64,000 nucleotides of DNA from Trypanosoma brucei (Eukaryota). Made by a program: the position numbers and the translations under genes. Positions 3,001 through 43,746 of this stretch are shown piece by piece (the stretch's first letter is position 1; the number at the start of each line of letters is the position of its first letter). The notes beneath the pieces are model-generated. The model saw only the letters and a list, made by a program, of their open reading frames with translations, was not told the DNA's origin and did not search any database. Location: assembly GCA_000002445.1 (NCBI GenBank), contig CP000067.1, positions 1,472,001 through 1,536,000 of the forward strand, read 5' to 3'.

Positions 3001-5029
3001 TTTGCACTACCAAAGAAAAAAAAATAATAATAATAACAAATTAACGGCTTATCAAAACTAAGCCAAATAGCCTAGCAACAACAGAAGGATATGCCTTGTA
3101 GACAAAACTTCAAACTTTAGACGTATAACCATATTGATAAGACATATTCTGAAGCTCCGTTACTTCCAAACGTGCAAGGTGCACTGAAGGGTTTAAAAAT
3201 CAAAAGTATGCGCCGCCTGGAGATGGTGGCTGTCCTGCCGATACTACGTTAGTTGGAATCGTTGGCTCACTGTGAGGTGGAAAGCCAACCAGAAGAAGCA
3301 AGCGGCGAATATAACGCAAACACATATGAAGGAGTGATCGCAACTAAACCAGCCTACCCAGATAAAGAAGTCTCTGAATGATACAGCAAAGAATACAAGG
3401 TTTATCTTGATGGACTAACAAGACAAACTTACATGAGACGCAACAACTGCCCGAGGAAACAGGAAGCCTAGAGTTCAAATAACACAACGAATAACAAAGT
3501 GGGCAAAGTGAACTGGCATGCCTCAACCAACTGCAAAGCGTAACTCATAAGGACTTTTCGAACGTACAGCTAGAGCTCAGAAAGCATGCTGTACCTTATG
3601 GCGCACTAATGGAACCAGGCAGCAAGGCGACGAGGTACGGCAAAGGCCGTCACAAGCTGCATGCTCAAACAAGATAAACATAAGAGATGCCAAGGGGATG
3701 GGAAATTCTTGTAAAGTGGATATGTCTTAGGGAGCTGTTGGCATGATCTCAGGCACTAGAAGCCGAGTACAAAGGGACTTGCAATCACTGTGTGGTAATT
3801 ATAGTTTCTCTTGTTTCGCCGGCGGCGACCAACTAACGGACCTGAGCAAAAAGTGTGTCGATGGAGGAACGCAACTCAACCAAATCCCCATCGCCAACAT
3901 CAGGGAGAGAAGCAGAGACGCCTTTCCAACAAAGTTGGGTCACCAATCCACCGTGGCTCATGTACTGAGTGCATTCATTTCACCATTATGCTAAAATGTT
4001 TCCATCATCCATTTTATAAACTATCAGAATTTGGATAGAAAATATGCTAAAGTTTTAATGTTTTTTTTTTGGGGGGAGTTCGTGAAACTGTTGCATTCTA
4101 ATCGAGCTCTTTAAGATTTGCTTTCGTCTATTCTCCTCTATTTTCGCTATGGTCGCATGGTTTGAGCTCAAAAATAAGATTCGGAGAAAATTAAAAACTC
4201 GTCGAAAAACGAAATTTCGGTGATGATGAACATGGGTTTCTACGGTGGAGTCGACCTTTTAACATGTTGAACATATGAAAAACACAACCATTCAGAGTGA
4301 CAATTTACGTGTTTGAATTATTTCTATTGGATTAAAAGTTTAATATTCACTCTCATTTTCGTTTTTGAAGGGAAATGTTTTTAGACTAAATCGTTGAGAA
4401 CTGAGATTTTTTTTCTATTGCCACATACATAATACCTAACAGTTATGGCTTAATTGGATGCTAAGGTTATATTTGTGTAAAATGGAATAACTTAATTCCA
4501 AAAAAGTCACGATGTGACACTATATACTTGCATACAACCATGTCCCGGGGTGAATAATTGACGGCTTTCCACTAACACTGGTGGGGAAACAACATGACAG
4601 CGTGCAAGAAAAAAATTATAAAAGAGACAAACCGCCAGCTCTTATTTTTTTAAATGCGGGGACTAAGGGTGACATGCCATGTAGCGTTCGGAAAAGCAGG
4701 GGTGTTACACGTTGTGTCACGAAACTTTACTGAAAACTACAACGCAAATATCGCTAAGATATGATAACGGCAAGCTGATTTCAATTCTCGTAGCCTTGTA
4801 TGTCACAAACGTTGCTGACGTCCCGTAAACATAACATCTCCTCAGGGACCCGTGTATTAAGACATCTTTGGTTAAGTTGTTGAATTTGTTGTTAGGACAA
4901 CCGCCGTCTATTGCAGAACCCCAAATTACATCTATCACCTACAAATAAAAAGCCAAGTTCCAACCATCACCAACAACGAAGATAAAGTCACAAAAACAGC
5001 TCAACACATCCACGAAAGGAAAGGCACTA

Positions 5030-6559
5030 ATGGAAAGTCGATCCGATACCAAAGGAACGTCGCACATAGCTGTTGCAGCAGCCGTTCCAGTATTATTCAT
5101 GACGCTGATGAGGTGCGGCATGGCGCAAACAATAACGGAACCGTCTTCGGACAAAGTAACAAACCTCTGTACAGAGGCCAAGTATACAGCCCATCTGGCA
5201 GATCACATCGTAGCGGCGGCAGAAGAGCCGGAGCGCGAAATATCCGACATGCAAATTTATGCAGAGGCATGGAATCTCCTTGCCGCCAGCACAAACCAAA
5301 CAGACAAGCGTGCCGCGACATATGCCCTTGCTGCGTACATGTCCGCCGCGGCGGCAAAAGCAAAGCAGCTGCAAAACGGGAAATACAAAGCAGCAGTCTT
5401 GGCCGCTACCTACCTGCAAAGGAGATCAGCGCTGACACGAACATTGCAAGCTATGCGTGTAAAAGGCAAGACGGCTGTGGGACAGTTCACTAAAAAGCAG
5501 GGCGAAGAGGCATCATGTTCACACAAGGAAACGCCGACTTTAAGCGACGAAGGGGATTGCGGGCGACAGGATAATGCCATCAACCATCCTGAGTCAATTG
5601 CCATAGATTTAAGGACAGCGACTCACATCAAACTGGTACATGGCAGTAAGCTAAGACCACTGGAGTTAACGCACGAAGCTGATGTAAGAGAGACGACACC
5701 ATCGGAGCAAGCGCAAGTGAAAGCCACAGGTTGCAAGGCCGTGCTAAGAAGCGACTTCTATGTTACATTCATAGCATCAACTACAAAAAAGGAAGACAAA
5801 ACTGGAGTAACAGCTATTAAGATATTCGCGGGCGACGATGCAAATACAAGTTGTGCTGAGCTCAAAGACGCCACGAAGAAATCAGAAAAGGATAACGACC
5901 TACTGATCAACAAAATCTGCACCTACATAACAAAACCCGATCCGCAGATTATAACCATATCCAGTTTGACGCCAGCCATGTTAGCAAACACAACGGCAGT
6001 CCAAGTGGCGTTCAGAAGCTTCGTTCATGCAGCAACCGGTAAAGCGCCAAGCGACGCCGAGATTGAAATGCAACTTCAAAAACTTTACGGAGGGGACAAG
6101 CAACACTTCAAAAGAGACTTCGTGACAATTCTGACAACAAAGAATATGACATACCACACGGGCTCAGGATTTGTAACTGAAACATTCCTTGATGCAGCTA
6201 AAAACAACCACGCCCACAAGGTGCTGATCTATCTAAAAGGTCAAAGAGCGGCAGCACAGGCAAAACAACCAAGGACAAACGAGAGTGAAATCAACGGCCC
6301 GGTCTGCGGAGGTGAGGGCCAAGAGGAGTGCAAATTGGATGAAAAGAAAGACCCGGAGAAACCGAACGGAACTCAAATGCGGAAATGGCCTAAAGCACTC
6401 CAGTGGATGATCACACGACAAGGAGGAAATTGCAAAACAATACAGCAAGAAGATTGTAAAGAAGACTGTACATGGGATGAGGGAGCTTGTGACGGCGCAG
6501 TTGGCATTTCTGCTTCGATGAATATTTCTCTGTTCATGGCATTTTTGCTTCTAGCATAA
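5030..6559 (+). CDS. VSG-related / atypical VSG-like GPI-anchored surface glycoprotein, array copy 1 (type A), 509 aa
   Basis: Complete ORF. N-terminal hydrophobic signal (AVAAAVPVLFMTLMRCGMA). Alanine-rich heptad-like N-terminal region typical of the VSG A-type fold (NLCTEAKY..., AATYALAAYMSAAAAKAKQLQ...). Cys-rich C-terminal domain ending in a hydrophobic GPI-signal-like tail (GISASMNISLFMAFLLLA) that differs from canonical VSG C-termini. No 70-bp repeat upstream. Confidence 0.7.
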   Translation: MESRSDTKGTSHIAVAAAVPVLFMTLMRCGMAQTITEPSSDKVTNLCTEAKYTAHLADHIVAAAEEPEREISDMQIYAEAWNLLAASTNQTDKRAATYALAAYMSAAAAKAKQLQNGKYKAAVLAATYLQRRSALTRTLQAMRVKGKTAVGQFTKKQGEEASCSHKETPTLSDEGDCGRQDNAINHPESIAIDLRTATHIKLVHGSKLRPLELTHEADVRETTPSEQAQVKATGCKAVLRSDFYVTFIASTTKKEDKTGVTAIKIFAGDDANTSCAELKDATKKSEKDNDLLINKICTYITKPDPQIITISSLTPAMLANTTAVQVAFRSFVHAATGKAPSDAEIEMQLQKLYGGDKQHFKRDFVTILTTKNMTYHTGSGFVTETFLDAAKNNHAHKVLIYLKGQRAAAQAKQPRTNESEINGPVCGGEGQEECKLDEKKDPEKPNGTQMRKWPKALQWMITRQGGNCKTIQQEDCKEDCTWDEGACDGAVGISASMNISLFMAFLLLA

Positions 6560-7779
6560 AAACTTATTGGAAATACTTTATTGTAGCAAACATTAATTTT
6601 TTTCTGGAAATATCTTAATGTAGTGGAATATGCATTTTTATGGAAAGATCTTATTATACGAAACCGTATCTTTGTTGAATTATCTTGGATAAATTTACAT
6701 TCATCTTGGAAATATTTTATACAATTCTTAAATGTGCGTTTGTATTTCAACGCTTTTTGCAAACATGTGAAGACTTTGAGAGATCTTTTTTGTTGTTGTA
6801 CAAATTTGATGTTTGAATGTAAAGTGATATGTTGATGGAGTGTCAAAAGTGGGTGCCATTAGGATTTTTACTATTATGGTTTATTCAATTAATTTTATGT
6901 TTACCTTTGAAAATGTAAATATATGCAAATCTTCTCTAGTGTTGTGGCCGGGGAGTATAATGTAGTATGGTAACGGTTTACGAATGAGAAATGAGTGCTA
7001 TTCTGAAATTTTCTGTTTCGGTTTATTTGGTGTATCGTATGGATGTTAGTCAAGGTTATAAAAGTAATGGTAAGAGTGGTTGGGGTGAGGATTAGGATGT
7101 TGGTATATTTGAATAACAAGGTCTTCCAAAGGAGGAAGAGAGATAGACAAGGCAGTGAAGGGCTGCAGAGGTGTTGTGGCATGCATGGAAATGATATAGA
7201 TCTCTAAGGGAGTATCAGGTATGATTTTACTCGGGAAGGGGTTGCTGCTCATACTTGTGATTATATATTTCCTGAAGCGGTCAAATGTTTCACAACTTCC
7301 ATTAGAATAAAGTTTAGGAGAAGCAATAGGATGAGGGAAGCCCCCGCTGAATTGTTTGGCGGATATACAGTTTGATGAGTGGAAGGTTCGTTGTAGAAGC
7401 ACGCGTGCACGTCTCGCCCAATTGGTGAGAGAGCAGTAATGGCCGGATGCATTTGCCGTGAGTAACAACCCCAACAATGGATACAAAGGAGTTATTGTTC
7501 ATCATCGAGGTGTGACAACAGTAGTGGTGCATATATTTGTCGGCCCCTCGGATATGGAAAAGGGATCAAACGGTGCCGCTGGCATTGGAGGTTTTGTTGG
7601 TAATTCCTTAGAAATATCTTGCTGAAATTTGTTGAAGTTATTGAGACAACTATCTTTTCTATGTTACCCTACTATTTCATGTATTGCTTACTGGTAACAA
7701 CATAAAGTCCAATTTTTATCAACAGGGAAGTCAAGGACACCAAGGCAACGCAGCAACGTGGAAAAAGCTGGAGGAACTA

Positions 7780-9306
7780 ATGGAAAGTCGACCCGATACC
7801 AAAGGAATGTGCCACGCGACAGTGGCAGCAACTGTTCCAGTATTATTCATGACGCTGATGAGGTGCGGCATGGCGCAAACAGTAACGGAACCGTCTTCGG
7901 ACAAAGTAACAAACCTCTGTACAGAGGCCAAGTATACGGAATATTTGGCGAGTCGAATCGTAGCGGTAGCAGAGAGGCAGGAGCGCGAAATATCCGACAT
8001 GCAAATTTATTCAGAGGCATGGAATCTCCTTGCCGCCAGCACAAACCAAACAGACAAGCGTGCCGCGACATATGCCCTTGCTACGTACATGTCCACCGCG
8101 GCGGAAACAGCAAGGCGGGCACACGCTGGAAAATACAAAGCAGCAGTGGCAACTGCGAAGTTGCTACACAGGAGGTCGGCGCTAACGCGTACGTTGCTAA
8201 CGATGAGAATCCGGGGAAAGACAATAGTTGGAATAAGCAAAGAGGCCAACGGCATAGGAATATGCCCTGGTGAAGCAACACCAACATTAAGCGGCGACAG
8301 TAGTTGCGCGCACCGAACCAATGACAGCAACCAACCAGAAGGTATTGCTGTGAACTTGAAGGCAGCGACGCACATAAAATTGCTAAATAGCAGTGCACTA
8401 AGACCTCGGGGGTTAACCCATCTAGTTGAGATAAAAGAAACGAAGTGGCCAGCAAGCAGAGAAGCATTAGTCGAGAGGTGCGGGGGCTTGTTGGGAGGTG
8501 ACCATTATGTTAAATTCGAAGCATCAACCACAGGAGAAGACAGCAAAATCATAGTAGAGCCGATTAAGATATTTGAGGGTGACGATGCGGAGAAAAACTG
8601 CGCTGTCGTACAGAAAGAATCTATGAAATCAGAAAAGGACAATGATCTACTGATCAACAAAATATGCACCTACATAACAATACTCGACCCGCAGATTATA
8701 ACCATATCCAGTTTGACGCCTGCCATGTTAGCAAACACGAGCACAGTCCAAATGGCGTTCAAAAGCTTCGTTCATGCAGCAACCGGTAAAGCACCTAGCG
8801 ACGGCGAAATCGAGTTGCAACTTAAGAGCCTTTACGGTGGGGACAAGCAAAACTTCACCAGAGACTTCGTAAAAATTCTGTGGACGAAGAACGTGACATA
8901 CCACACGGGCGCAGGATTCAAAACTGAGACGCTCCTTGATGCGGTTAGAAACAAAAACGCACAGAGGGCTCTAATCTATCTGGAAGATCAAAGACCAGCA
9001 GAGGAGTCAAAACAGACACAAACGGACGAGAGTGAAATCAACGGCCCGGTCTGCGGAGGTGAGGGCCAAGAGGAGTGCAAATTGGATGAAAAGAAAGACC
9101 CGGAGAAACCGAACGGAACTCAAATGCGGAAATGGCCTAAAGCACTCCAGTGGATGATCACACGACAAGGAGGAAATTGCAAAACAATACAGCAAGAAGA
9201 TTGTAAAGAAGACTGTACATGGGATGAGGGAGCTTGTGACGGCGCAGTTGGCATTTCTGCTTCGATGAATATTTCTCTGTTCATGGCATTTTTGCTTCTA
9301 GCATAA
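7780..9306 (+). CDS. VSG-related / atypical VSG-like surface glycoprotein, array copy 2 (type B). Likely start is the MESRPDTKG ATG at 7780; the in-frame upstream ATG at 7684 gives the 540-aa track ORF.
   Basis: Paralog of copy 1 with the same signal peptide and C-terminal 120 aa and a divergent central region. Start chosen by alignment with copies 1 and 4. Confidence 0.65.
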   Translation: MESRPDTKGMCHATVAATVPVLFMTLMRCGMAQTVTEPSSDKVTNLCTEAKYTEYLASRIVAVAERQEREISDMQIYSEAWNLLAASTNQTDKRAATYALATYMSTAAETARRAHAGKYKAAVATAKLLHRRSALTRTLLTMRIRGKTIVGISKEANGIGICPGEATPTLSGDSSCAHRTNDSNQPEGIAVNLKAATHIKLLNSSALRPRGLTHLVEIKETKWPASREALVERCGGLLGGDHYVKFEASTTGEDSKIIVEPIKIFEGDDAEKNCAVVQKESMKSEKDNDLLINKICTYITILDPQIITISSLTPAMLANTSTVQMAFKSFVHAATGKAPSDGEIELQLKSLYGGDKQNFTRDFVKILWTKNVTYHTGAGFKTETLLDAVRNKNAQRALIYLEDQRPAEESKQTQTDESEINGPVCGGEGQEECKLDEKKDPEKPNGTQMRKWPKALQWMITRQGGNCKTIQQEDCKEDCTWDEGACDGAVGISASMNISLFMAFLLLA

Positions 9307-10526
9307 AAACTTATTGGAAATACTTTATTGTAGCAAACATTAATTTTTTTCTGGAAATATCTTAATGTAGTGGAATATGCATTTTTATGGAAAGATCTTA
9401 TTATACGAAACCGTATCTTTGTTGAATTATCTTGGATAAATTTACATTCATCTTGGAAATATTTTATACAATTCTTAAATGTGCGTTTGTATTTCAACGC
9501 TTTTTGCAAACATGTGGAAATTTTGAGAGATCTTTTTTGTTGTTGTACAAATTTGATGTTTGAATGTAAAGTGATATGTTGATGGAGTGTCAAAAGTGGG
9601 TGCCATTAGGATTTTTACTATTATGGTTTATTCAATTAATTTTATGTTTACCTTTGAAAATGTAAATATATGCAAATCTTCTCTAGTGTTGTGGCCGGGG
9701 AGTATAATGTAGTATGGTAACGGTTTACGAATGAGAAATGAGTGCTATTCTGAAATTTTCTGTTTCGGTTTATTTGGTGTATCGTATGGATGTTAGTCAA
9801 GGTTATAAAAGTAATGGTAAGAGTGGTTGGGGTGAGGATTAGGATGTTGGTATATTTGAATAACAAGGTCTTCCAAAGGAGGAAGAGAGATAGACAAGGC
9901 AGTGAAGGGCTGCAGAGGTGTTGTGGCATGCATGGAAATGATATAGATCTCTAAGGGAGTATCAGGTATGATTTTACTCGGGAAGGGGTTGCTGCTCATA
10001 CTTGTGATTATATATTTCCTGAAGCGGTCAAATGTTTCACAACTTCCATTAGAATAAAGTTTAGGAGAAGCAATAGGATGAGGGAAGCCCCCGCTGAATT
10101 GTTTGGCGGATATACAGTTTGATGAGTGGAAGGTTCGTTGTAGAAGCACGCGTGCACGTCTCGCCCAATTGGTGAGAGAGCAGTAATGGCCGGATGCATT
10201 TGCCGTGAGTAACAACCCCAACAATGGATACAAAGGAGTTATTGTTCATCATCGAGGTGTGACAACAGTAGTGGTGCATATATTTGTCGGCCCCTCGGAT
10301 ATGGAAAAGGGATCAAACGGTGCCGCTGGCATTGGAGGTTTTGTTGGTAATTCCTTAGAAATATCTTGCTGAAATTTGTTGAAGTTATTGAGACAACTAT
10401 CTTTTCTATGTTACCCTACTATTTCATGTATTGCTTACTGGTAACAACATAAAGTCCAATTTTTATCAACAGGGAAGTCAAGGACACCAAGGCAACGCAG
10501 CAACGTGGAAAAAGCTGGAGGAACTA

Positions 10527-12053
10527 ATGGAAAGTCGACCCGATACCAAAGGAATGTGCCACGCGACAGTGGCAGCAACTGTTCCAGTATTATTCATGAC
10601 GCTGATGAGGTGCGGCATGGCGCAAACAGTAACGGAACCGTCTTCGGACAAAGTAACAAACCTCTGTACAGAGGCCAAGTATACGGAATATTTGGCGAGT
10701 CGAATCGTAGCGGTAGCAGAGAGGCAGGAGCGCGAAATATCCGACATGCAAATTTATTCAGAGGCATGGAATCTCCTTGCCGCCAGCACAAACCAAACAG
10801 ACAAGCGTGCCGCGACATATGCCCTTGCTACGTACATGTCCACCGCGGCGGAAACAGCAAGGCGGGCACACGCTGGGAAATACAAAGCAGCAGTGGCAAC
10901 TGCGAAGTTGCTACACAGGAGGTCGGCGCTAACGCGTACGTTGCTAACGATGAGAATCCGGGGAAAGACAATAGTTGGAATAAGCAAAGAGGCCAACGGC
11001 ATAGGAATATGCCCTGGTGAAGCAACACCAACATTAAGCGGCGACAGTAGTTGCGCGCACCGAACCAATGACAGCAACCAACCAGAAGGTATTGCTGTGA
11101 ACTTGAAGGCAGCGACGCACATAAAATTGCTAAATAGCAGTGCACTAAGACCTCGGGGGTTAACCCATCTAGTTGAGATAAAAGAAACGAAGTGGCCAGC
11201 AAGCAGAGAAGCATTAGTCGAGAGGTGCGGGGGCTTGTTGGGAGGTGACCATTATGTTAAATTCGAAGCATCAACCACAGGAGAAGACAGCAAAATCATA
11301 GTAGAGCCGATTAAGATATTTGAGGGTGACGATGCGGAGAAAAACTGCGCTGTCGTACAGAAAGAATCTATGAAATCAGAAAAGGACAATGATCTACTGA
11401 TCAACAAAATATGCACCTACATAACAATACTCGACCCGCAGATTATAACCATATCCAGTTTGACGCCTGCCATGTTAGCAAACACGAGCACAGTCCAAAT
11501 GGCGTTCAAAAGCTTCGTTCATGCAGCAACCGGTAAAGCACCTAGCGACGGCGAAATCGAGTTGCAACTTAAGAGCCTTTACGGTGGGGACAAGCAAAAC
11601 TTCACCAGAGACTTCGTAAAAATTCTGTGGACGAAGAACGTGACATACCACACGGGCGCAGGATTCAAAACTGAGACGCTCCTTGATGCGGTTAGAAACA
11701 AAAACGCACAGAGGGCTCTAATCTATCTGGAAGATCAAAGACCAGCAGAGGAGTCAAAACAGACACAAACGGACGAGAGTGAAATCAACGGCCCGGTCTG
11801 CGGAGGTGAGGGCCAAGAGGAGTGCAAATTGGATGAAAAGAAAGACCCGGAGAAACCGAACGGAACTCAAATGCGGAAATGGCCTAAAGCACTCCAGTGG
11901 ATGATCACACGACAAGGAGGAAATTGCAAAACAATACAGCAAGAAGATTGTAAAGAAGACTGTACATGGGATGAGGGAGCTTGTGACGGCGCAGTTGGCA
12001 TTTCTGCTTCGATGAATATTTCTCTGTTCATGGCATTTTTGCTTCTAGCATAA
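10527..12053 (+). CDS. VSG-related / atypical VSG-like surface glycoprotein, array copy 3 (type B). Protein identical to copy 2; upstream in-frame ATG at 10431.
   Basis: ORF translation is identical to copy 2. The only nucleotide difference seen in the CDS is a synonymous GGA/GGG at 8127 vs 10874. Confidence 0.65.
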   Translation: MESRPDTKGMCHATVAATVPVLFMTLMRCGMAQTVTEPSSDKVTNLCTEAKYTEYLASRIVAVAERQEREISDMQIYSEAWNLLAASTNQTDKRAATYALATYMSTAAETARRAHAGKYKAAVATAKLLHRRSALTRTLLTMRIRGKTIVGISKEANGIGICPGEATPTLSGDSSCAHRTNDSNQPEGIAVNLKAATHIKLLNSSALRPRGLTHLVEIKETKWPASREALVERCGGLLGGDHYVKFEASTTGEDSKIIVEPIKIFEGDDAEKNCAVVQKESMKSEKDNDLLINKICTYITILDPQIITISSLTPAMLANTSTVQMAFKSFVHAATGKAPSDGEIELQLKSLYGGDKQNFTRDFVKILWTKNVTYHTGAGFKTETLLDAVRNKNAQRALIYLEDQRPAEESKQTQTDESEINGPVCGGEGQEECKLDEKKDPEKPNGTQMRKWPKALQWMITRQGGNCKTIQQEDCKEDCTWDEGACDGAVGISASMNISLFMAFLLLA

Positions 12054-13238
12054 AAACTTATTGGAAATACTTTATTGTAGCAAACATTAATTTTTTTCTG
12101 GAAATATCTTAATGTAGTGGAATATGCATTTTTATGGAAAGATCTTATTATACGAAACCGTATCTTTGTTGAATTATCTTGGATAAATTTACATTCATCT
12201 TGGAAATATTTTATACAATTCTTAAATGTGCGTTTGTATTTCAACGCTTTTTGCAAACATGTGGAAATTTTGAGAGATCTTTTTTGTTGTTGTACAAATT
12301 TGATGTTTGAATGTAAAGTGATATGTTGATGGAGTGTCAAAAGTGGGTGCCATTAGGATTTTTACTATTATGGTTTATTCAATTAATTTTATGTTTACCT
12401 TTGAAAATGTAAATATATGCAAATCTTCTCCGGTGTTGTGGCCGGGGAGTATAATGTAGTATGGTAACGGTTTACGAATGAGAAATGAGTGCTATTCTGA
12501 AATTTTCTGTTTCGGTTTATTTGGTGTATCGTATGGATGTTAGTCAAGGTTATAAAAGTAATGGTAAGAGTGGTTGGAGTGACGATTAGGATGTTGGTAC
12601 ATTTGAATAACAAGGTCTTCCAAGGGAGGAAGAGATATGTATAAAGTACTGAAGGGCTGCAGAGGTGTTGTGTTAGGCATGATTGTGCACGGGAAGGAGT
12701 TGCTGCCGAAGCTTCTGATATACATGTGTTTCCAGAAACGATCAAATGCTGCGGAGCTTACGTGGGAAGAAAGTTTCGGAAGAGTTATGGGATGAGGGAA
12801 ATTCCCACTGCATTGTTTGAGCAGATTCACAACATGATAAGTGGAAGGTTGGTTGGAGAAGTGCGCAGGTACGCCACACCCAGTTGGCAAGAGATTGCAA
12901 TAGTCGGGTGCATGCCGGGAGTGATGACCCCACTGATAGTCAGGTCGCTAATAACGCTGAGGTTTGGAAAAAGCACACCTGAATTGATTTATCGGTGTAT
13001 CGAAGATCGAAAACATGATTAAGGCTCCCCAGTTACTGCATTCCCTCAAGGGGTTGCCGTTAAAAATATTTTTGTGCAAACTGTTTAAGTTATTATTGGG
13101 ACAACCGCTCTCTATTGCGGAACCACAAATTTCATCTATGACATACCTATAAATAAAAAGCCAAGTTCCAATCATCATCAACAACGAAGATAAAGGCACA
13201 AAGGCAACGAAACACATTACACGGAGGGAAAGGAGCCG

Positions 13239-14768
13239 ATGCAAGTTCAACGCACTACCAAAGAAGTGTTGCACAAAGCTGTTGCAGCAGCCGTGCCCGT
13301 GTTATTCATGACGCTGATGAGGTGCGGCATGGCGCAAACAGTAACGGAACCGTCTTCGGACAAAGTAACAAACCTCTGTACAGAGGCCAAGTATACAGCC
13401 CATCTGGCAGATCACATCGTAGCGGCGGCAGAAGAGCCGGAGCGCGAAATATCCGACATGCAAATTTATGCAGAGGCATGGAATCTCCTTGCAGCCAGCA
13501 CAAACCAAACAGACAAGCGTGCCGCGACATATGCCCTTGCCACGTACATGTCCACTGCGGCGGCAAAAGCAAAGCAGCTGCAAAACGGGAAATACAAAGC
13601 AGCAGTCTTGGCCGCTACCTACCTGCAAAGGAGATCAGCGCTGACACGAACATTGCAAGCTATGCGTGTAAAGGGACAGTCAGGAGCGGGACAAGTCACT
13701 AACCGACAAGGCGTCATCTCATCATGTTCACACAAGGAAACACCGACGTTAAGCGACGAAGGGGATTGCGGGCGACAAGGCAGTGATGCCAACCATCCAG
13801 AATCAATTGCCGTAAATTTAAGGACAGCGACTCACCTCAAACTGTTAGACAGCAGCAGGCTAAGACCGCTAGCGTTAAATCACTTAGCCGAAGTAGAAGG
13901 AACAGCGCCACCAGCAAAAACGGAAGTACAAGCCGAAGGCTGCAAGGCTGTGATAAGCATTGGCTATTATGCTAAATTCACAGCATCGACAAAAGAAAGT
14001 GACGACAACAGTGAAGTCAAAGCCATTAAGATATTCGCGGGTGACAATGCAAGTACAAATTGCGCTCTTCTGCACAACGCCGAAAGGAAATCAGAAAAGG
14101 ATAACGACCTACTGATCAACAAAATATGCAACTACATAAACAAACCTGATCCTCAGATAATAACCATATCCAATTTGACGCCTGCCATGTTAGCAAACAC
14201 GAGCACAGTCCAAATGGCGTTCAAAAGCTTCGTTCATGCAGCAACCGGTAAAGCACCTAGCGACGGCGAAATCGAAAACCAGCTTAAGAGCCTTTACGGA
14301 GGGGATGAGGTGACATTTACCAATGACTTCATAAAAATTCTGTGGACGAAGAACGTGACGTACCACACTGGCTCAGGATTCGTAACTGAGACATTTCTTG
14401 ATGCAGCTAAAAACGAAAACGCGCACAAGGTGCTCATCTATCTAAAAGGTCAAAGAGCGGCAGCACAGGCAAAACAACCAAGGACAAACGAGAGTGAAAT
14501 CAACGGCCCGGTCTGCGGAGGTGAGGGCCAAGAGGAGTGCAAATTGGATGAAAAGAAAGACCCGGAGAAACCGAACGGAACTCAAATGCGGAAATGGCCT
14601 AAAGCACTCCAGTGGATGATCACACGACAAGGAGGAAATTGCAAAACAATACAGCAAGAAGATTGTAAAGAAGACTGTACATGGGATGAGGGAGCTTGTG
14701 ACGGCGCAGTTGGCATTTCTGCTTCGATGAATATTTCTCTGTTCATGGCATTTTTGCTTCTAGCATAA
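13239..14768 (+). CDS. VSG-related / atypical VSG-like surface glycoprotein, array copy 4 (type A with type-B segments, mosaic), 509 aa
   Basis: Complete ORF. The N-terminal 140 aa and the upstream region match copy 1. One internal block (TPAMLANTSTVQMAFKSFVHAATGKAPSDGEIE) matches copies 2/3 rather than copy 1. The C-terminal 120 aa is shared by all copies. Confidence 0.7.
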   Translation: MQVQRTTKEVLHKAVAAAVPVLFMTLMRCGMAQTVTEPSSDKVTNLCTEAKYTAHLADHIVAAAEEPEREISDMQIYAEAWNLLAASTNQTDKRAATYALATYMSTAAAKAKQLQNGKYKAAVLAATYLQRRSALTRTLQAMRVKGQSGAGQVTNRQGVISSCSHKETPTLSDEGDCGRQGSDANHPESIAVNLRTATHLKLLDSSRLRPLALNHLAEVEGTAPPAKTEVQAEGCKAVISIGYYAKFTASTKESDDNSEVKAIKIFAGDNASTNCALLHNAERKSEKDNDLLINKICNYINKPDPQIITISNLTPAMLANTSTVQMAFKSFVHAATGKAPSDGEIENQLKSLYGGDEVTFTNDFIKILWTKNVTYHTGSGFVTETFLDAAKNENAHKVLIYLKGQRAAAQAKQPRTNESEINGPVCGGEGQEECKLDEKKDPEKPNGTQMRKWPKALQWMITRQGGNCKTIQQEDCKEDCTWDEGACDGAVGISASMNISLFMAFLLLA

Positions 14769-15549
14769 AAACTTATTGGAAATACTTTATTGTAGCAAAC
14801 ATTAATTTTTTTCTGGAAATATCTTAATGTAGTGGAATATGCATTTTTATGGAAAGATCTTATTATACGAAACCGTATCTTTGTTGAATTATCTTGGATA
14901 AATTTACATTCATCTTGGAAATATTTTATACAATTCTTAAATGTGCGTTTGTATTTCAACGCTTTTTGCAAACATGTGGAAATTTTGAGAGATCTTTTTT
15001 GTTGTTGTACAAATTTGATGTTTGAATGTAAAGTGATATGTTGGTGGAATGTCGAAAATGGTTGCTATTTAGAATATTTTTGCTATTATGGTTTATTCGA
15101 AGAAATTTATGTTTACCTTTGAAGATGTGAAAATGTTTAAATGTTTTCAAATGTTTTTGACTTGTGGGTATAACGTGGTAAAGTGATAGGGGTGTGAAAA
15201 ATGAGTGTGATTATGAAAACTTGCCATTTTGGTTTATTTTTTTGTAATAGATATTAAGAGTAGTTTAAGGTTATGATATTAATAGCAGTATAGTAATAGT
15301 GTGTGTGCCATATAAGTGCACATACTAACATTATGGTAAGAGTGGTGGTGCAGAACGACTGGAGACAAAATAGAAGCAGTTAAGCTGATGCCAAGGGCAC
15401 AGTGGGAGTTAGCAAGTGAGTGGGAGAGGAAGAGGACGAGGAGGATATTATTAAAACAAAAGCAGAAACACAGGTAGATGGAGAGAAAAGGTAATGAAAT
15501 ATGCGCAGTTTTTTTCATTGTACATTTATCCTGCTCGTGCTGCGGTAGA

Positions 15550-17905
15550 CTAGCTACTGCCCCTGTGGCTCTGCAAATTAGCAGGGGATGTTTAGCGCAA
15601 CCGCAATTTCATCTTCACTTGATCCAATGATACCTTGAAACTGATTGAGTATTCTGTAGATTTAGCTTCACGGGTACGTTTACGCATGGCTCTTGCAGTG
15701 CCAACCCCTAAAGACTTCGCTGCCGCAGAGTGGTGGTCAGTGGAATCCAACTCCGTTGGCGATCGGTGCCTCTTCACGGCTCAAGTGGGCCCAGATTTTT
15801 TCTCTAAGATTGGGGGGGGGGAGATGGTCTCTCTAGCTTGAAGAGCTCCTTCAGGAAGCTGGCTAGTTGTGTGCTGAAGAACACTTCCCCGTTCTTCAGG
15901 GTTTCTAGACCATGCTTTTCCCTTTAGCACTTGCAAGCTTGGGCATTCAAAGAGGTGCGCCGCAGCCTCGTTACACTCAACCTTCAGCAAGTAATGCTCA
16001 TTCTCCTTCCTCAGTTGGCCCTGCTTCGCCTGTATGTGCATCGTCAGGAACTTCTTTAGTGTGCAATTCATTGGGCAGTATGGGCACTGGAGTGATCTTT
16101 TCAGGAGAGGTGTCACCGCTACCGTGCCGTCCTTTAGTTTTCGTTTCACTGTCGTGGCGTGCGCGTATGCCAAACCAGTGAGCACCACTGCTTGTACACA
16201 CTGCTGTTTCCACCGCACACATTGTCCATTCCCTCTTTGCCTTCTGTGTGGCGGACTACCCGAAGACGCTTAGGCGGTCTTTCCCCATTGTCCCTTCCTG
16301 CTGACTCCAATGACTCACTCACCTCACTCTGTGCCTGAGCCTCTGCTCTCACTACCTTTCGCTTCGGCTTCACGCGTGGCTGAGGACGCAATGACTCGTC
16401 GTGACCCAGGTGCTTGGTCGGTATGCGTTGCGGTAACCATCTGTAATGATACTGCTTTCTACAAATGGAACACGCCACTGTAACTGACTGCTTCGCCACG
16501 TCCGAGTCTTCAGAGTTCGTGTTCGAGGTTGGTTCGTACTTGTGCCTGGTGGGCCATGTCTTGCTTTTGAGGACGCGTTGGCACCTGTAGCATACAAATT
16601 CCCTTTTATCCTGCTCCTCCTGCTCTGCCTCGCCATCACTACCGGACACGTCTTGTGGCTTCATAGCGCCGCGCGTTAACTGCTTTTCCGTGTGCTTCTG
16701 CAGCCACGCGTATACAGTGTACTTAATTGCGCACCAGCGGCACTTGAACGCTTTGCCATCATCGGCCCCATAATCCTCCCTAGCCCTTTTCGGACGCTCC
16801 TCCACGGCTGCCACTATATCTGAAAGTTGCTGTGCCATATGCTTCACGAGCAGCCCACGCCGCTCAAAGACATCGCACACATGTGACATCTGTACCCATT
16901 CTTATGCGTCTGCGCCGCACGCTTAGCTTTGTTGGTCAGAGCTAATGCACAATCCCTCTCCAGACCATGAATCTTCAGTAGGTGCACCACGCCAGCCTGT
17001 TGCCGCGCGCAAACCACGTTGCACAATGAGCAAATGATCGGGTCGATCAGCCTGGTTGCTATCCCAGGATCTGGTGCGTTCGCATTGTCCGCTGCTGACT
17101 CCGCCTCCGGGCGCTCTTCTGCTGTGTCGCTGCGTGGTTCCTGTGTGTCGCACCGTATGCATCCAAGCTGGTCCGTCTTGCGTGTGAGCGCCCTGTGGAG
17201 CCGTCCGAAATGCTTCGAGGTGCCTGTTCCGAACTGCGCCAGCACCGACTCGCCCAGACGCTCCAGCCTTGTGTGCTTCGGTGCGGCCCGAACGTAGTCG
17301 AGTAGCGCACTCCGATGCGTACGCTGCATGCGGCCCTTCTTGAAGGCCTTGTACATCGCATTCCAGACCTGTCACCACACACCCGTCGCTATGTCAGTGA
17401 TCCACGCGGGATACAACTACGGCTTTGCGTTTCCCTGCTCAGCTGCCTTGTCAGCTGCTTCATTTCGTGATGTTGGTAGCCAGCAACGCTAAAGCAAGCC
17501 GCCTCTCCAGGCGTCATTCTTGTCTCGCTCAACAGACAAAAGGCGATCCGCTCATCAACAAGGGTTTTGTGGAGTGCTAATCTCTTTCCTTGAGTTAGCC
17601 CGGCGCAGTTCCACTGCATCCCGCACAACGACGGGCCGGGATTCTCTTCCACATCACCGGACAGCAGCATCTTAGTGCGGATGATACTGCTGATGGCACG
17701 CTGGCACGTGCCCAGGGACCGACAAATGAAAAACGGTGTCCCAGCAAGACGCTGCTGATCCCTGTGCTGTATGATGCCGTAGCCGGAGCACAGCAGTGTT
17801 CCCCATGAGAAGAACGCTGCTGGCTCTTGGCTTCCCCCGATGATACGGGGTACTTGACCCTGGCACCACGTTGAGGTGGCCGGCATCTCTAGGGGTACTA
17901 TTACT
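15550..17905 (-). mobile_element. ingi/L1Tc-clade non-LTR retrotransposon remnant, internally deleted (5' region with 2A peptide and start of the AP-endonuclease domain joined to C-terminal C2H2 zinc-finger region; the RT domain is absent)
   Basis: Minus-strand ORF 17389-17886 encodes ...RTKMLLSGDVEENPGPSLCGMQWNCAGL..., a 2A-like motif followed by an APE-like start, as described for L1Tc/ingi. The 5' end (rc of 17,815-17,880) contains ...cctcaacgtggtgccagggtcaagtaccccgtatcatcgggggaagccaagagccagcagcg, consistent with the conserved 5' signature of ingi/RIME-type elements. ORFs 16844-17356, 16146-16889 and 15781-16218 carry repeated C-x2-C...H-x3-H motifs (FKCRWCAIKYTVYAWLQKH, FVCYRCQRVLKSKTWPTRH, CPYCPMNCTLKKFLTMH). 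Frameshifts occur between the ORFs. Exact ends are uncertain. Confidence 0.65.
17632..17655 (-). other. 2A-like self-processing peptide motif D-V-E-E-N-P-G-P within the retroelement ORF
   Basis: The reverse complement of 17632-17655 is gatgtggaagagaatcccggcccg = DVEENPGP, an exact match to the canonical 2A C-terminal consensus D(V/I)ExNPGP. Confidence 0.8.
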
Positions 17906-18217
17906 AGTTAACATATTTATGACAGTTTAATAAGATGATTCATTTTCATACTCTATTTGCCCATTATTTTGAAAAAATGTGCCACTTTCATAACAAAATG
18001 TTATACGTAAAATTCTAAATAATTTCTGTAGTTTATGCATTTTAATTAAATGCTTTTCAAATATATCATATTTTACCAAATATAGATAACTCTCTGTTAA
18101 TGGCAAATTTTGTGAAATAGAGCAAAATTCCTTAAAATAGAAATCCCACAAAATCAGCAGCGATTATAGCAAAATTTTATTTACAAAGAAAATTGAATTT
18201 TTGCAAGCATTATTTTC

Positions 18218-19567
18218 TCATTTACAATTCTGTCCCTTTGAGCACGCATCGTGATTGGCATGACTGGTGCAATTTACAACTTTGGCTTTACTATTTCTGC
18301 CTTTCTTTTCTCCTTTTTTGTCTGTTGCTTTTTTTTCCTTAGTTAAATCTTCTTCTGTTCTCTTTCTTTGTTGCTGTGCATGATAAAAACTGATTGCTGT
18401 TCCTGCTTCTTTTTTTGTTGCTAATTCCTCAAGGGTTCTGGTTGCCATCTTTTTAGAAGCTCTATACTTTAAAGGTTGCTTGTTCATCTTTGTGATAAAC
18501 TCGTCTGTAAATTTTTCATGGGTTTCACTGTAGGCCTTTGTTATGTATTCGACTAACTCGCTGTTTTACGTGCCATCGCTGAAGTCTTTGATGTTACTGA
18601 ACGCCGTATTGGCGTTACGGATTGCTGCTAATACGCTGGCGTCCGCTGCCAGTGCTCCTGGATTGATGTCGGCTAGTTTGGGCAGCGTCCGTGTCGCTTC
18701 CAGGTCCGCCATGCAGATCGTGTTTGGAAAATTTTTTGTTGCGTCTTTTTTGTCGGCGGTGGCTGTAAGCTTTTGGGCGCACCCCTTTTGGCGGTCGTCG
18801 TCTGTGAAGATGCTGGTCTCGGTTGGCTGGGGCTTGTCTTGCTCAGTCAGTTTAAACGTATTGCCGCCTCCTATGTTGCCGGTGCATGACGCCACCGTAG
18901 CTGCTGGCGAATCGTTTGTTGCACAGTTGTTGCCAGCTGCTGTTACTCTGACGGATGCCGTTTTTAGCAGTTTGTGAAGGTCACTTACTTTTTTCATTCT
19001 CAGTTTTTTCAGAGCCGTCGTCGCAAACGTTTTTGGCTTGGGTTTTACAGTGCTGACTTTTCAGGCTTCTTCGTCGCACGTACTTTATCGTTCGTTGGTT
19101 GCGCCATTCGTTATCGTGTAGCCGGTGTTCGCTGGAGCTGTGAAAGGGTTGCTGTTTGCTGCGTAAGTTGGTGTAGCCATTTTATACGCTGTTTGCAAAG
19201 CCTCCGCTCGCTGTGCGAACGCCTGCGCCGCCTGTCTGAGCTTAGCGGCTTTTTCCTTTCCTTTTTTCTCTGTTTCCGCGGCGACTGCCGTCGCTGATGC
19301 AGAAAGTGCTGCTAGTAAGGCGCTTCTTTCGTGTTTTATTTCTGTTTGTGCCTCTAAGTTCCAAATTAGTGCCTGTTTGTCGATTTGCCGATAAGCACTT
19401 TCCGCCTCAACTGCTCTTGCTTCGTAGGTATGTGCCACTGCTGCGGCGAATACCGCCTCCTGGCATGCTGTCTGAAGTTTGTCTTGGGCTGCGTCCCCCG
19501 TTGTTGAGACACTGAAATCTGCTATTGCCATTATGACAAAGACGAGGCAAATTCCGGTCCGCTGCAT
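18218..19567 (-). pseudogene. VSG pseudogene (A-type N-terminal domain; frameshifts; C-terminus truncated, no GPI signal)
   Basis: ORF 19085-19567 has a signal peptide plus VSG N-terminal heptad region. ORFs 18566-18997 and 18218-18487 continue in other frames and end ...CSKGQNCK-stop without a hydrophobic tail. A 3'UTR-like AT-rich tract with a TGATATAT 8-mer lies downstream, directly abutting the ingi remnant. Confidence 0.7.
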
Positions 19568-29166: not shown

Positions 29167-29182
29167 GTGTTAAAATATATCA
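29167..29182 (-). promoter_or_regulatory. VSG 3'UTR conserved 16-mer TGATATATTTTAACAC (minus strand)
   Basis: Plus strand reads gtgttaaaatatatca, the exact reverse complement of the 16-mer known to govern VSG mRNA stability. Confidence 0.8.
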
Positions 29183-43497: not shown

Positions 43498-43590
43498 CCC
43501 TAACCCTAACCCTAACCAGATAACCCTAACCCTAACCCTAACCCTAACCCTAACCCTAACCCTAACCCTAACCCTAACCCCCCTAACCTA
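43498..43590 (-). repeat. Interstitial telomeric repeat tract: ~15 x CCCTAA on the plus strand, i.e. (TTAGGG)n on the VSG-coding strand, with one interruption (ccagat)
   Basis: Direct read: ccctaaccctaaccctaaccagataaccctaa(ccctaa)n...cccccctaacc. Confidence 0.95.
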
Positions 43591-43730: not shown

Positions 43731-43746
43731 GTGTTAAAATATATCA
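43731..43746 (-). promoter_or_regulatory. VSG 3'UTR conserved 16-mer TGATATATTTTAACAC (minus strand), belonging to VSG 43810-45360
   Basis: Plus strand reads gtgttaaaatatatca, ~65 nt downstream of the VSG stop on the coding strand. Confidence 0.85.

What the first reader, a model, noticed from the sequence alone, without database searches (positions are those of the whole stretch)
15150..17905. Internally deleted ingi-like retroelement with an intact DVEENPGP 2A motif at a convergent strand switch
The plus-strand VR-like array ends at 14,768 and the minus-strand unit (VSG array plus retroelement) ends around 15,550. The two transcription units therefore converge here, and the retroelement sits exactly at this boundary. 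The element retains the 5' signature, the 2A-like peptide and the start of the APE domain, then jumps to a C2H2 zinc-finger-rich C-terminal region (at least 4 fingers). The RT is missing, so it is a deletion derivative that could only be mobilised in trans. ingi/RIME elements are known to mark VSG-array boundaries. The preserved 2A motif in a dead element is a useful sequence marker.
Basis: partly seen in the sequence, partly recalled or inferred. Interest (0 to 1): 0.5.

Follow-up and report, generated by a model that had tools for sequence, protein, structure and literature searches.

The report
Dead hybrid ingi retroposon between VSG arrays
The flagged sequence is a dead 2.4-kb retroposon remnant in a Trypanosoma brucei VSG gene array, made of the head of one known element family (Tbingi) fused to the tail of another (Tvingi/Tcoingi-type); it is an ordinary genomic scar rather than a working element.

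Summary
The window is T. brucei TREU927 chromosome 4.

**What is there.** A retroposon relic lies on the minus strand at 17,894→15,509 (2,386 bp), not down to 15,150.
- the 5' signature (Pr77)
- an intact DVEENPGP motif
- the first ~50 residues of the endonuclease
- no reverse transcriptase
- a zinc-finger tail
- an A7 end
- a position exactly where a plus-strand and a minus-strand VSG array converge

**What it is not.** It is not a deletion derivative of one ingi element.
- Head (17,894–17,462): Tbingi nt 1–~434, 95% identical.
- Tail (17,469–15,509): the last ~1.99 kb of a Tvingi/Tcoingi-type (ingi6 subclade) element. It is 74% and 73% identical to those and has no nucleotide similarity to Tbingi.
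- Join: an imperfect microhomology, CACGnAA, out of frame.
- Decay of the tail: 5 stops and 4 frameshifts.

**How it probably formed.** There is no 12-bp target-site duplication, and the two flanks belong to the two oppositely oriented arrays. The likeliest origin is two independent insertions later joined by a microhomology-mediated deletion or recombination. A one-step template-switch chimera is the main rival.

The annotated gene Tb927.4.5440 is a fragment of the tail's ORF.

**Verdict.** Low interest: a new member of a known kind.

The parts
15509..17894 (-). Whole composite retroposon relic (2,386 bp): Tbingi head plus ingi6-type tail plus A7
   Evidence: blastn of reference copies against the window gives Tbingi 1-435 ↔ 17,895-17,462, Tvingi 3407-5396 ↔ 17,469-15,509 and Tcoingi 3410-5400 ↔ 17,469-15,509. 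No other retroposon fragment is found in the 64 kb.
17818..17894 (-). 5' '76-79-bp signature' (Pr77)
   Evidence: A single exact 24-mer hit. It aligns to the first 74 nt of Tcoingi at 83% and to Tbingi. The positions shown to be critical in L1Tc Pr77 are all present: CCCT 1-4, CCACC 16-20, TCAA 21-24 and CGTG 25-28 (sequence; PMC4748587).
17462..17894 (-). Tbingi-derived head (Tbingi nt 1 to ~434): signature, 2A and the first ~50 aa of the AP endonuclease
   Evidence: 94.6-94.9% nt identity to a Tbingi copy of T. b. equiperdum (L001 2485-2919). 7 private changes in 305 nt against two other copies. 4/140 aa differences from the Tbingi N-terminal consensus.
17632..17655 (-). Codons for the 2A core DVEENPGP
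   Evidence: Read from the sequence and translation. Identical to the Tbingi consensus ...KMLLSGDVEENPGP.
17389..17886 (-). Open 165-aa ORF: 140 aa of the Tbingi N-terminus, then a 25-aa out-of-frame read into the tail
   Evidence: This exact protein is not in the 15-billion-protein collection.
17462..17469 (-). Head/tail junction, with imperfect microhomology CACGnAA(T)
   Evidence: Four-way comparison of window, Tbingi, Tvingi and Tcoingi. Both alignments overlap on these 8 nt. In the tail the junction falls at the last RNase H motif...PRNEAADKAA.
15509..17469 (-). ingi6-type (Tvingi/Tcoingi-like) tail: the last ~12 aa of RNase H, the zinc-finger C-terminal region and the 3' end; degenerate
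   Evidence: 73.9% nt to Tvingi and 72.7% to Tcoingi. 58-67% aa identity. 5 in-frame stops (17,419; 17,374; 15,783; 15,594; 15,552). Frameshifts of -1 (16,877), -13 (16,161), +1 (15,925) and +2 (15,824-15,823).
16146..16889 (-). Annotated 'hypothetical protein Tb927.4.5440' (247 aa), which is the frame-2 segment of the tail ORF between two frameshifts
   Evidence: Exact look-up. It aligns to the Tvingi/Tcoingi C-terminal region.
15509..15515 (-). A7 tail, the 3' end of the element
   Evidence: The window, Tvingi and Tcoingi copies all end ...CACAA(T/G)G followed by A7-9, after which the three sequences diverge.
15237..15508 (+). 3' flank: 70-bp-repeat plus VSG-upstream module in plus orientation, belonging to the plus-strand array
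   Evidence: Aligns in inverted orientation to 20,592-20,353 (66.8% over 244 nt, E 4e-19). It is contiguous with the plus-array spacer 14,769-15,239, which is 87-88% identical to three other spacers.
17895..18068 (-). 5' flank: region downstream of the last minus-strand VSG pseudogene, with the 16-mer-like motif at 18,053-18,068, ending where a 70-bp repeat would begin (…TAGTAATAGTAC)
   Evidence: The Tbingi copy in L001 sits at the same relative position downstream of a VSG.

Best explanation
**What it is (shown).** The feature is a dead, non-autonomous, composite ingi-clade retroposon.
- The first ~434 nt are a young Tbingi (ingi4 subclade) head.
- The remaining ~1.96 kb are the 3' end of a Tvingi/Tcoingi-type (ingi6 subclade) element, that is, a T. 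brucei degenerate ingi-related element (TbDIRE).
- The two are joined out of frame at an imperfect 7-8-nt microhomology.
- Most of the endonuclease, all of the RT and almost all of RNase H are absent. The tail carries stops and frameshifts. No functional protein can be made and the element cannot move by itself.

**How it arose (inferred).**
1. A Tbingi inserted at the border of a 70-bp repeat just downstream of the last VSG of the minus-strand array.
2. An ingi6-type element inserted, in the same orientation, into the VSG-upstream module of the neighbouring plus-strand array.
3. A later double-strand-break repair or recombination event used the CACGnAA microhomology. It deleted everything between Tbingi nt ~434 and ingi6 nt ~3407.
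4. That event left one hybrid element as the present joint between the two convergent arrays.

**What it may still do (inferred).** The core positions of the Pr77 promoter are intact, so it may still give rise to unspliced transcripts. Nothing here indicates a selected function.
For: **Composite identity**
- The head is 94.6-94.9% identical to Tbingi. The tail is 73.9% identical to Tvingi and 72.7% to Tcoingi, with identical alignment boundaries (17,469→15,509).
- Against Tbingi the tail shows only 35% identity over 57 aa. Against Tvingi the head shows only 30% over 79 aa.
- The Tvingi head has a different signature and a GDIHCNPGP 2A.

**Junction**
- The microhomology was resolved base by base.

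**Two separate insertion sites**
- No TSD: the best match is 7/12, reached by 23% of shuffles. Yet head and tail have only a few percent neutral decay, so a real TSD should still be visible.
- The 5' flank continues a minus-strand VSG downstream region.
- The 3' flank is a plus-oriented 70-bp-repeat module, contiguous with the plus array.
- An independent Tbingi copy (L001) sits at the same relative spot downstream of a VSG. It has a perfect ingi4 target motif, so this is a normal Tbingi landing site (motif from PMC3820030).

**Repair pathway**
- MMEJ with 5-20-bp imperfect microhomologies is the end-joining route documented in T. brucei; NHEJ has not been seen (PMC3045614).

**Tail comes from a once-functional lineage**
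- On the Tb branch dN/dS = 0.27, similar to the Tv and Tco branches.

**Literature context**
- T. brucei is reported to hold only extinct ingi6 elements (eight TbDIRE) (PMC3820030).
Against: - No pre-deletion haplotype or orthologous locus could be retrieved, so the two-insertion history is inferred, not seen.
- The window's 5' flank matches only 4 of 8 positions of the Tbingi target motif. It lacks GTxGG (GTTAA instead), so an independent canonical Tbingi insertion here is plausible but unproven.
- The microhomology is short and imperfect. It would serve RT template switching equally well.
- The head (~2-3% decay) and the tail (~0.5-6%, from dN/dS and stop counts) could be the same age. That also fits a one-step origin.
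- The junction between the two arrays might have existed before any insertion.
Confidence: 0.5

Rival explanations
1. One-step chimeric retrocopy. During target-primed reverse transcription of an ingi6-type RNA, the RT copied ~1.99 kb from the poly(A) end. It then switched template, at the CACGnAA microhomology, to a Tbingi RNA at nt ~434 and ran to its 5' end. The hybrid cDNA was inserted at this site.
For: - The head is complete to nt 1 and the tail ends in the family's normal terminus plus A7.
- The junction has microhomology.
- Head and tail decay estimates overlap.
- Short ingi-clade elements are thought to arise as internal-deletion derivatives (PMC3820030).
Against: - There is no 12-bp TSD despite low decay.
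- The two flanks belong to two different, oppositely oriented array modules. A single insertion would need a pre-existing head-to-head joint exactly here.
- The 5' flank sits at a spot used by an ordinary Tbingi insertion elsewhere. That is unexpected if the site was chosen from the 3' end by another element's endonuclease.
Confidence: 0.2
2. Simple internal-deletion derivative of a single autonomous element, either Tbingi itself or a T. brucei ingi6-type family that natively had a Tbingi-like head.
For: - The layout, a 5' end plus a 3' end with the middle missing, is that of TbRIME, TvRIME and NARTc (PMC3820030).
- The 77-nt signature is shared by all ingi-clade families.
Against: - The tail has no nucleotide similarity to Tbingi and only 35% identity over 57 aa. 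Descent from Tbingi is therefore excluded.
- The head matches Tbingi at 95% through 180 nt of endonuclease coding sequence.
- The T. brucei ingi6 DIREs are reported to be preceded by the ingi6 target signature. That implies an ingi6-type, not Tbingi-type, endonuclease (PMC3820030).
- Tvingi and Tcoingi heads differ strongly from this head beyond the signature.
Confidence: 0.08
3. Member of an undescribed multi-copy, non-autonomous hybrid family that was, or is, mobilised in trans.
For: - Intact Pr77 core positions and a normal 3' terminus.
- The literature argues that the 5' signature may suffice for recognition by the retrotransposition machinery (PMC3820030).
Against: - No TSD.
- No protein in the public collection spans the junction. 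All T. brucei-group hits to the head stop at residue ~140.
- The only T. brucei-group protein matching the tail is Tb927.4.5440 itself, both in a complete word search and in an exhaustive HMMER search.
- Caveat: degenerate copies are rarely annotated as proteins, so this is weak negative evidence.
Confidence: 0.1

Closest known systems
Tbingi (T. brucei ingi, ingi4 subclade; 5,250 bp, 1,657-aa ORF, ~115 copies)
   Same: The first ~434 nt are Tbingi at 95% identity: the signature, the KMLLSGDVEENPGP 2A and the endonuclease N-terminus. The 5' end lies at a landing site used by another Tbingi copy.
   Different: Nothing beyond nt ~434 is Tbingi. The RT, RNase H and the Tbingi 3' end are absent, and the tail has no nucleotide similarity to Tbingi.
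Tvingi / Tcoingi (T. vivax and T. congolense autonomous elements, ingi6 subclade; 5,419 and 5,404 bp)
   Same: The tail is colinear with the last ~1.99 kb of both, from the final RNase H motif through seven zinc-finger motifs to the shared terminus CACAA(T/G)G plus poly(A). Identity is 74%/73% nt and 58-67% aa.
   Different: It is in T. brucei, it is degenerate (5 stops, 4 frameshifts) and it lacks the first 3.4 kb. Its head is not ingi6-type; Tvingi has GDIHCNPGP and a different signature.
TbDIRE (degenerate ingi/L1Tc-related elements of T. brucei, ~73 copies, of which eight belong to the ingi6 subclade)
   Same: The tail fits the definition: ingi-related, with coding capacity destroyed by frameshifts and stops, and related to ingi6 (PMC3820030).
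   Different: DIREs are described as ~5 kb elements with their own 5' signature and, for the ingi6 group, the ingi6 target motif upstream. Here only 2 kb remain and the head is Tbingi. Whether this copy is one of the eight catalogued could not be checked.
TbRIME, TvRIME and NARTc (short non-autonomous internal-deletion derivatives)
   Same: The same general layout: a 5' end with the signature joined to a 3' end with poly(A), no RT (PMC3820030).
   Different: Those derive from one parent family, are multi-copy and have 12-bp TSDs. This one joins two subclades, has no TSD and no detected second copy. The Tbingi part (434 nt) extends beyond the Tbingi-derived 5' segment of the RIME-like copy in L003, which follows Tbingi only for ~305 nt.
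Recombinant or chimeric LINE copies in other eukaryotes (L1 5'-end swapping, template-switch chimeras). From my own knowledge, not tested here.
   Same: A hybrid of two co-resident LINE lineages joined at a microhomology.
   Different: No evidence here that the hybrid ever propagated.

Membership tests
ingi-clade non-LTR retroposon | Conserved 76-79-bp signature (Pr77) at the 5' end | tested here: met
   17,894-17,818. Unique 24-mer. Aligns to the Tbingi and Tcoingi 5' ends. The CCCT, CCACC, TCAA and CGTG positions are intact.
ingi-clade non-LTR retroposon | Poly(A) stretch at the 3' end | tested here: met
   A7 at 15,515-15,509, directly after the terminus shared with Tvingi and Tcoingi; the sequences diverge beyond it.
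ingi-clade non-LTR retroposon | 12-bp target-site duplication flanking the element | tested here: not met
   Best 7/12 with offsets allowed; 1,173 of 5,000 shuffles do as well.
ingi-clade non-LTR retroposon (autonomous form) | Single ORF encoding APE, RT, RNase H and a C2H2 domain | tested here: not met
   Only ~50 aa of APE, no RT, the last ~12 aa of RNase H and a degenerate zinc-finger region remain.
Tbingi / ingi4 subclade | Nucleotide colinearity with Tbingi along the element, including its 3' end | tested here: not met
   Met only for nt 1-~434 (95%). No nucleotide similarity after that; 35% identity over 57 aa at best.
Tbingi / ingi4 subclade | Upstream target motif AxxxxxxxTxxxGTxGGxTxxx^xTxTxxTxxxxx | tested here: inconclusive
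   The window flank matches 4 of 8 upstream positions and lacks GTxGG. The control Tbingi copy L001 matches 8 of 8 (sequences; motif from PMC3820030; counted by hand).
TbRIME | ~500 bp made of the two ends of Tbingi | tested here: not met
   2,386 bp, and the 3' end is not Tbingi. The RIME-like copy in L003 leaves Tbingi after ~305 nt, whereas this element follows Tbingi to ~434.
ingi6 subclade (Tvingi/Tcoingi/TbDIRE group) | Placement by RT-domain phylogeny | not testable with these tools
   The RT domain is absent from the element. Assignment rests on the C-terminal region only.
ingi6 subclade (Tvingi/Tcoingi/TbDIRE group) | Sequence colinearity with Tvingi/Tcoingi | tested here: met
   Met for the tail only: 1,999-2,006-nt alignments at 74%/73%, covering Tvingi 3407-5396 and Tcoingi 3410-5400.
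ingi6 subclade (Tvingi/Tcoingi/TbDIRE group) | Upstream target motif TTTTxxxxxA^Axxxxxxxxxxx | not testable with these tools
   The ingi6 5' end and its upstream flank are missing. The present 5' flank shows no such motif.
[quoted passage not shown] | ingi-related coding sequence disabled by frameshifts and stops | tested here: met
   The tail has 5 stops and 4 frameshifting indels relative to the Tvingi frame.
2A-like 'ribosome skipping' peptide | C-terminal consensus D(V/I)ExNPGP in frame within an ORF | tested here: met
   ...KMLLSGDVEENPGP lies in the 165-aa ORF. Activity was not tested, and the downstream ORF is truncated anyway.

The most novel reading that the evidence does not exclude
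The hybrid is not a deletion scar but a template-switch product or a founder of a small hybrid non-autonomous family. That would show three things. A Tvingi/Tcoingi-type autonomous retroposon was still active in the T. brucei lineage alongside Tbingi. Its tail evolved under purifying selection (dN/dS ~0.27), with only a few percent of neutral decay since. And 5' modules (Pr77 promoter plus 2A) can be exchanged between ingi subclades.
Probability: 0.15. Interest if true: 0.5.

Novelty: new member of a known kind. Interest (0 to 1): 0.25.

Why it matters
- **Annotation.** 'Hypothetical protein Tb927.4.5440' is a fragment of a degenerate retroposon ORF and should not be treated as a gene.
- **Subtelomere evolution.** This is a concrete example of a retroposon-to-retroposon joint, with microhomology, lying exactly where two VSG arrays of opposite orientation meet. 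It fits the view that MMEJ and recombination at repeated elements shape T. brucei subtelomeres.
- **Retroposon history.** The tail's low dN/dS and modest decay suggest that the ingi6-type lineage, now extinct in T. brucei, stayed functional until a time comparable to the age of ordinary Tbingi copies.

None of this changes current understanding. It is a small refinement.

Tried and rejected
**Searches that found nothing**
- Rfam, E-value threshold, 14.5-18.5 kb: no match, so no catalogued ribozyme or RNA family.
- Tandem Repeats Finder, 12-24 kb: nothing relevant.
- Pfam on the raw ORFs: only sub-threshold zinc-finger hits. The domains became clear only by alignment to Tvingi.
- Literature search for Tb927.4.5440: no paper.

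**Attempts to find orthologous or additional copies**
- Exact-protein look-ups of Tb927.4.5440, neighbouring VSGs and other element ORFs: nothing on record.
- The tools offer no nucleotide search of trypanosome genomes, so copy number in T. brucei is unresolved.

**A search that was incomplete**
- The first protein search was capped at 8,000 candidates. It missed even the self-hit and the T. brucei N-terminal hits. I did not rely on it for absence claims and repeated the search with shorter queries and an exhaustive HMMER search.

**Paper not available**
- The key paper on ingi subclades (Bringaud 2009, PMC2756862) is not held. Subclade names are taken from PMC3820030. Its running text is inconsistent on ingi1 versus ingi6, so I followed its Fig. 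7 legend.

**Hypotheses rejected**
- A mis-assembly or contamination origin of the Tvingi-like tail. At 74% identity it is not T. vivax DNA. It is contiguous with T. brucei VSG array modules on both sides.
- A simple insertion into one target site: no TSD, and the flanks are of opposite orientation.
Full report
**Source and setting**

Exact look-ups place the window on T. brucei brucei TREU927, on a 1,590,432-bp chromosome record. Its gene names (Tb927.4.x) indicate chromosome 4. The large ORFs are annotated VSGs or 'atypical' VSGs. ORF 16,146-16,889(-) is 'hypothetical protein Tb927.4.5440'.

- ORFs of 200 aa or more lie on the plus strand up to 14,768 and on the minus strand from 16,146 onward.
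- AT skew flips at about 15 kb.
- All 13 matches to the VSG 3'-UTR 16-mer are on the minus strand, between 18,053 and 63,701.

**The observation**

On the minus strand I find the following.
- The ingi-clade 5' signature is at 17,894-17,818. Its 24-mer is unique in the window, with 0 expected by chance.
- An open 165-aa ORF (17,886-17,389) contains ...KMLLSGDVEENPGP, encoded at 17,655-17,632, and the start of the AP endonuclease.
- After ...GYQHH the similarity jumps to the very end of an RNase H domain and a zinc-finger-rich C-terminal region spread over three reading frames.
- No RT-related sequence exists anywhere in the window.
- The element ends at 15,509 in an A7 run. A T. vivax, a T. congolense and this copy all end ...CACAA(T/G)G plus A7-9 and diverge immediately afterwards.

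The element is thus 17,894→15,509, or 2,386 bp.

**What it is**

Protein searches gave a split result.
- The N-terminal 140 aa are 90-95% identical to T. brucei-group ingi/RIME-encoded ORFs.
- The C-terminal ~540 aa match only T. vivax and T. congolense ingi proteins, at 58-67%.
- In a complete word search, and in an exhaustive HMMER scan of 1.84 billion representatives, the only T. brucei-group protein matching the tail is Tb927.4.5440 itself.

I fetched reference copies:
- a Tbingi from T. b. equiperdum (L001 2485-7749)
- a Tvingi (L002 5121-10,516)
- a Tcoingi (L004 892-6291)

Nucleotide comparison shows the following.

| Window segment | Matches | Identity |
|---|---|---|
| 17,895-17,462 | Tbingi nt 1-435 | 94.6-94.9% |
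| 17,469-15,509 | Tvingi nt 3407-5396 | 73.9% |
| 17,469-15,509 | Tcoingi nt 3410-5400 | 72.7% |

- Against Tbingi the tail reaches only 35% identity over 57 aa. Against Tvingi the head reaches only 30% over 79 aa.
- Tvingi's own head has a different signature and a GDIHCNPGP 2A.

In the nomenclature of Bringaud et al. (PMC3820030), the head is ingi4 (Tbingi/TbRIME). The tail is ingi6 (Tcoingi/Tvingi/TvRIME). That paper reports T. brucei to hold only eight extinct ingi6 TbDIRE. So this is a composite of two subclades, not an internally deleted ingi.

**Junction and state of decay**

- The two alignments overlap on 8 nt (17,469-17,462). Tbingi reads CACGGAAT, Tvingi/Tcoingi read CACG(T/C)AAC, and the window reads CACGAAAT. 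This is an imperfect microhomology, CACGnAA.
- In the tail the junction falls at the last RNase H motif (...PRNEAADKAA). The Pfam RNase H domain of the Tvingi protein P0001 spans residues 54-188, and the tail starts at about residue 176.
- The fusion is out of frame.
- Relative to the Tvingi frame the tail has five stops and four frameshifting indels (-1, -13, +1, +2), plus two in-frame deletions.
- Of seven zinc-finger motifs in Tvingi, two keep all ligands here.

**Ages of the two halves**

- The head is young. It has 7 private changes in 305 nt against two other copies and 4/140 aa against the Tbingi consensus. That explains why the 2A motif is intact.
- For the tail, NG86 estimates on 619 codons give dN/dS = 0.27 on the T. 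brucei branch, against 0.20 and 0.32 on the other two.
  - Most of its divergence therefore accrued under purifying selection.
  - From dN/dS and the stop count, I infer roughly 0.5-6% accrued as neutral decay.

**Flanks**

- There is no 12-bp target-site duplication. The best match is 7/12, reached by 23% of shuffles.
- The 5' flank (17,895-18,068) is the normal downstream region of the last minus-strand VSG pseudogene.
  - It stops where a 70-bp repeat would begin (...TAGTAATAGTAC).
  - The Tbingi in L001 sits at the same relative position downstream of a VSG (...TTTTAGTAATAGC|CCCT) and has a perfect ingi4 target motif. The window's flank matches only 4 of 8 positions.
- The 3' flank (15,237-15,508) is a 70-bp-repeat plus VSG-upstream module in plus orientation.
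  - It aligns in inverted orientation to 20,592-20,353 (E 4e-19).
  - It is contiguous with the plus-array spacer, which is 87-88% identical to three other spacers.

The two ends of the element therefore sit in two different, oppositely oriented array modules.

**Mechanism**

- Shown: composite structure, microhomology junction, absence of a TSD, flanks from two arrays.
- Inferred: two independent same-orientation insertions, followed by a deletion or recombination that joined them at the microhomology.
  - This matches the MMEJ behaviour documented for T. brucei: 5-20-bp microhomologies, mismatches tolerated, no NHEJ (PMC3045614).
  - Such an event would also have created the present joint between the arrays.
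- Confidence: I put this at about 0.5.
- Main rival (0.2): RT template switching in a single insertion.
  - It fits the full-length head, the normal tail terminus and the overlapping ages.
  - It does not explain the missing TSD or the mismatched flanks.
- Other rivals:
  - A simple deletion derivative of Tbingi is excluded.
  - A parent family with a native Tbingi-like head conflicts with the reported ingi6 target signature upstream of the T. brucei ingi6 DIREs.
  - A multi-copy hybrid family is not supported by any protein-level evidence, but it could not be tested at the DNA level.

**Function**

- None is indicated.
- The Pr77 positions shown to be essential in L1Tc (CCCT 1-4, CCACC 16-20, TCAA 21-24, DPE CGTG 25-28; PMC4748587) are all intact. 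Promoter activity giving unspliced transcripts directed toward the plus array is therefore possible, by inference only.

**Comparison and novelty**

- Both components belong to known families (Tbingi; ingi6-type TbDIRE). Retroposons are reported to accumulate at strand-switch regions (PMC4748587).
- The hybrid head/tail structure is the only unusual aspect. I found no description of it, and no paper mentions Tb927.4.5440.
- I file it as a new member of a known kind, of low interest.
- The practical result is that Tb927.4.5440 is a retroposon ORF fragment.

Noticed in passing
window 43,498-43,577 (minus strand): An interstitial tract of about 13 TTAGGG telomere repeats lies ~150 nt downstream of the perfect 16-mer (43,731-43,746) of the VSG at 43,810-45,360. 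It looks like a formerly telomeric VSG captured inside the array. The VSG ending near 29,167 has a similar telomere-proximal-type downstream sequence without the repeats.
   Followed up: partly
window 5,030-14,768 (plus strand): Four 'atypical VSG' genes sit in 2.65-2.8-kb tandem units. 7,684-9,306 and 10,431-12,053 encode identical 540-aa proteins. 5,030-6,559 and 13,239-14,768 are both 509 aa. The spacers after the first three genes are 87-88% identical to the spacer after the last. None of these genes carries the canonical VSG 3'-UTR 16-mer.
   Followed up: partly
window 16,146-16,889 (minus strand): The annotated protein-coding gene Tb927.4.5440 ('hypothetical protein') is the stretch of a degenerate retroposon ORF between two frameshifts. 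It is an annotation artefact rather than a gene.
   Followed up: yes
L001 2,296-2,485 (T. b. equiperdum) and window 17,895-18,068: Two independent Tbingi 5' ends lie at the same relative position, ~160-190 nt after a VSG 3'-UTR 16-mer, at the border of the 70-bp repeat (...TAGTAATAG). The L001 site carries a perfect Tbingi target motif. The 70-bp-repeat border may be a preferred Tbingi landing site.
   Followed up: partly
window 18,218-19,567 (minus strand): The last member of the minus-strand array is a frameshifted VSG pseudogene. Its ORF fragments are 19,085-19,567, 18,566-18,997 and 18,218-18,487, with a degenerate 16-mer at 18,053-18,068.
   Followed up: no
L003 9,993-~10,300 (T. b. equiperdum chr 4 core region): This copy follows Tbingi for only ~305 nt and then diverges, as expected for a RIME-type short element. 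It served as a control showing that the window's head (434 nt) is longer than a RIME head.
   Followed up: partly
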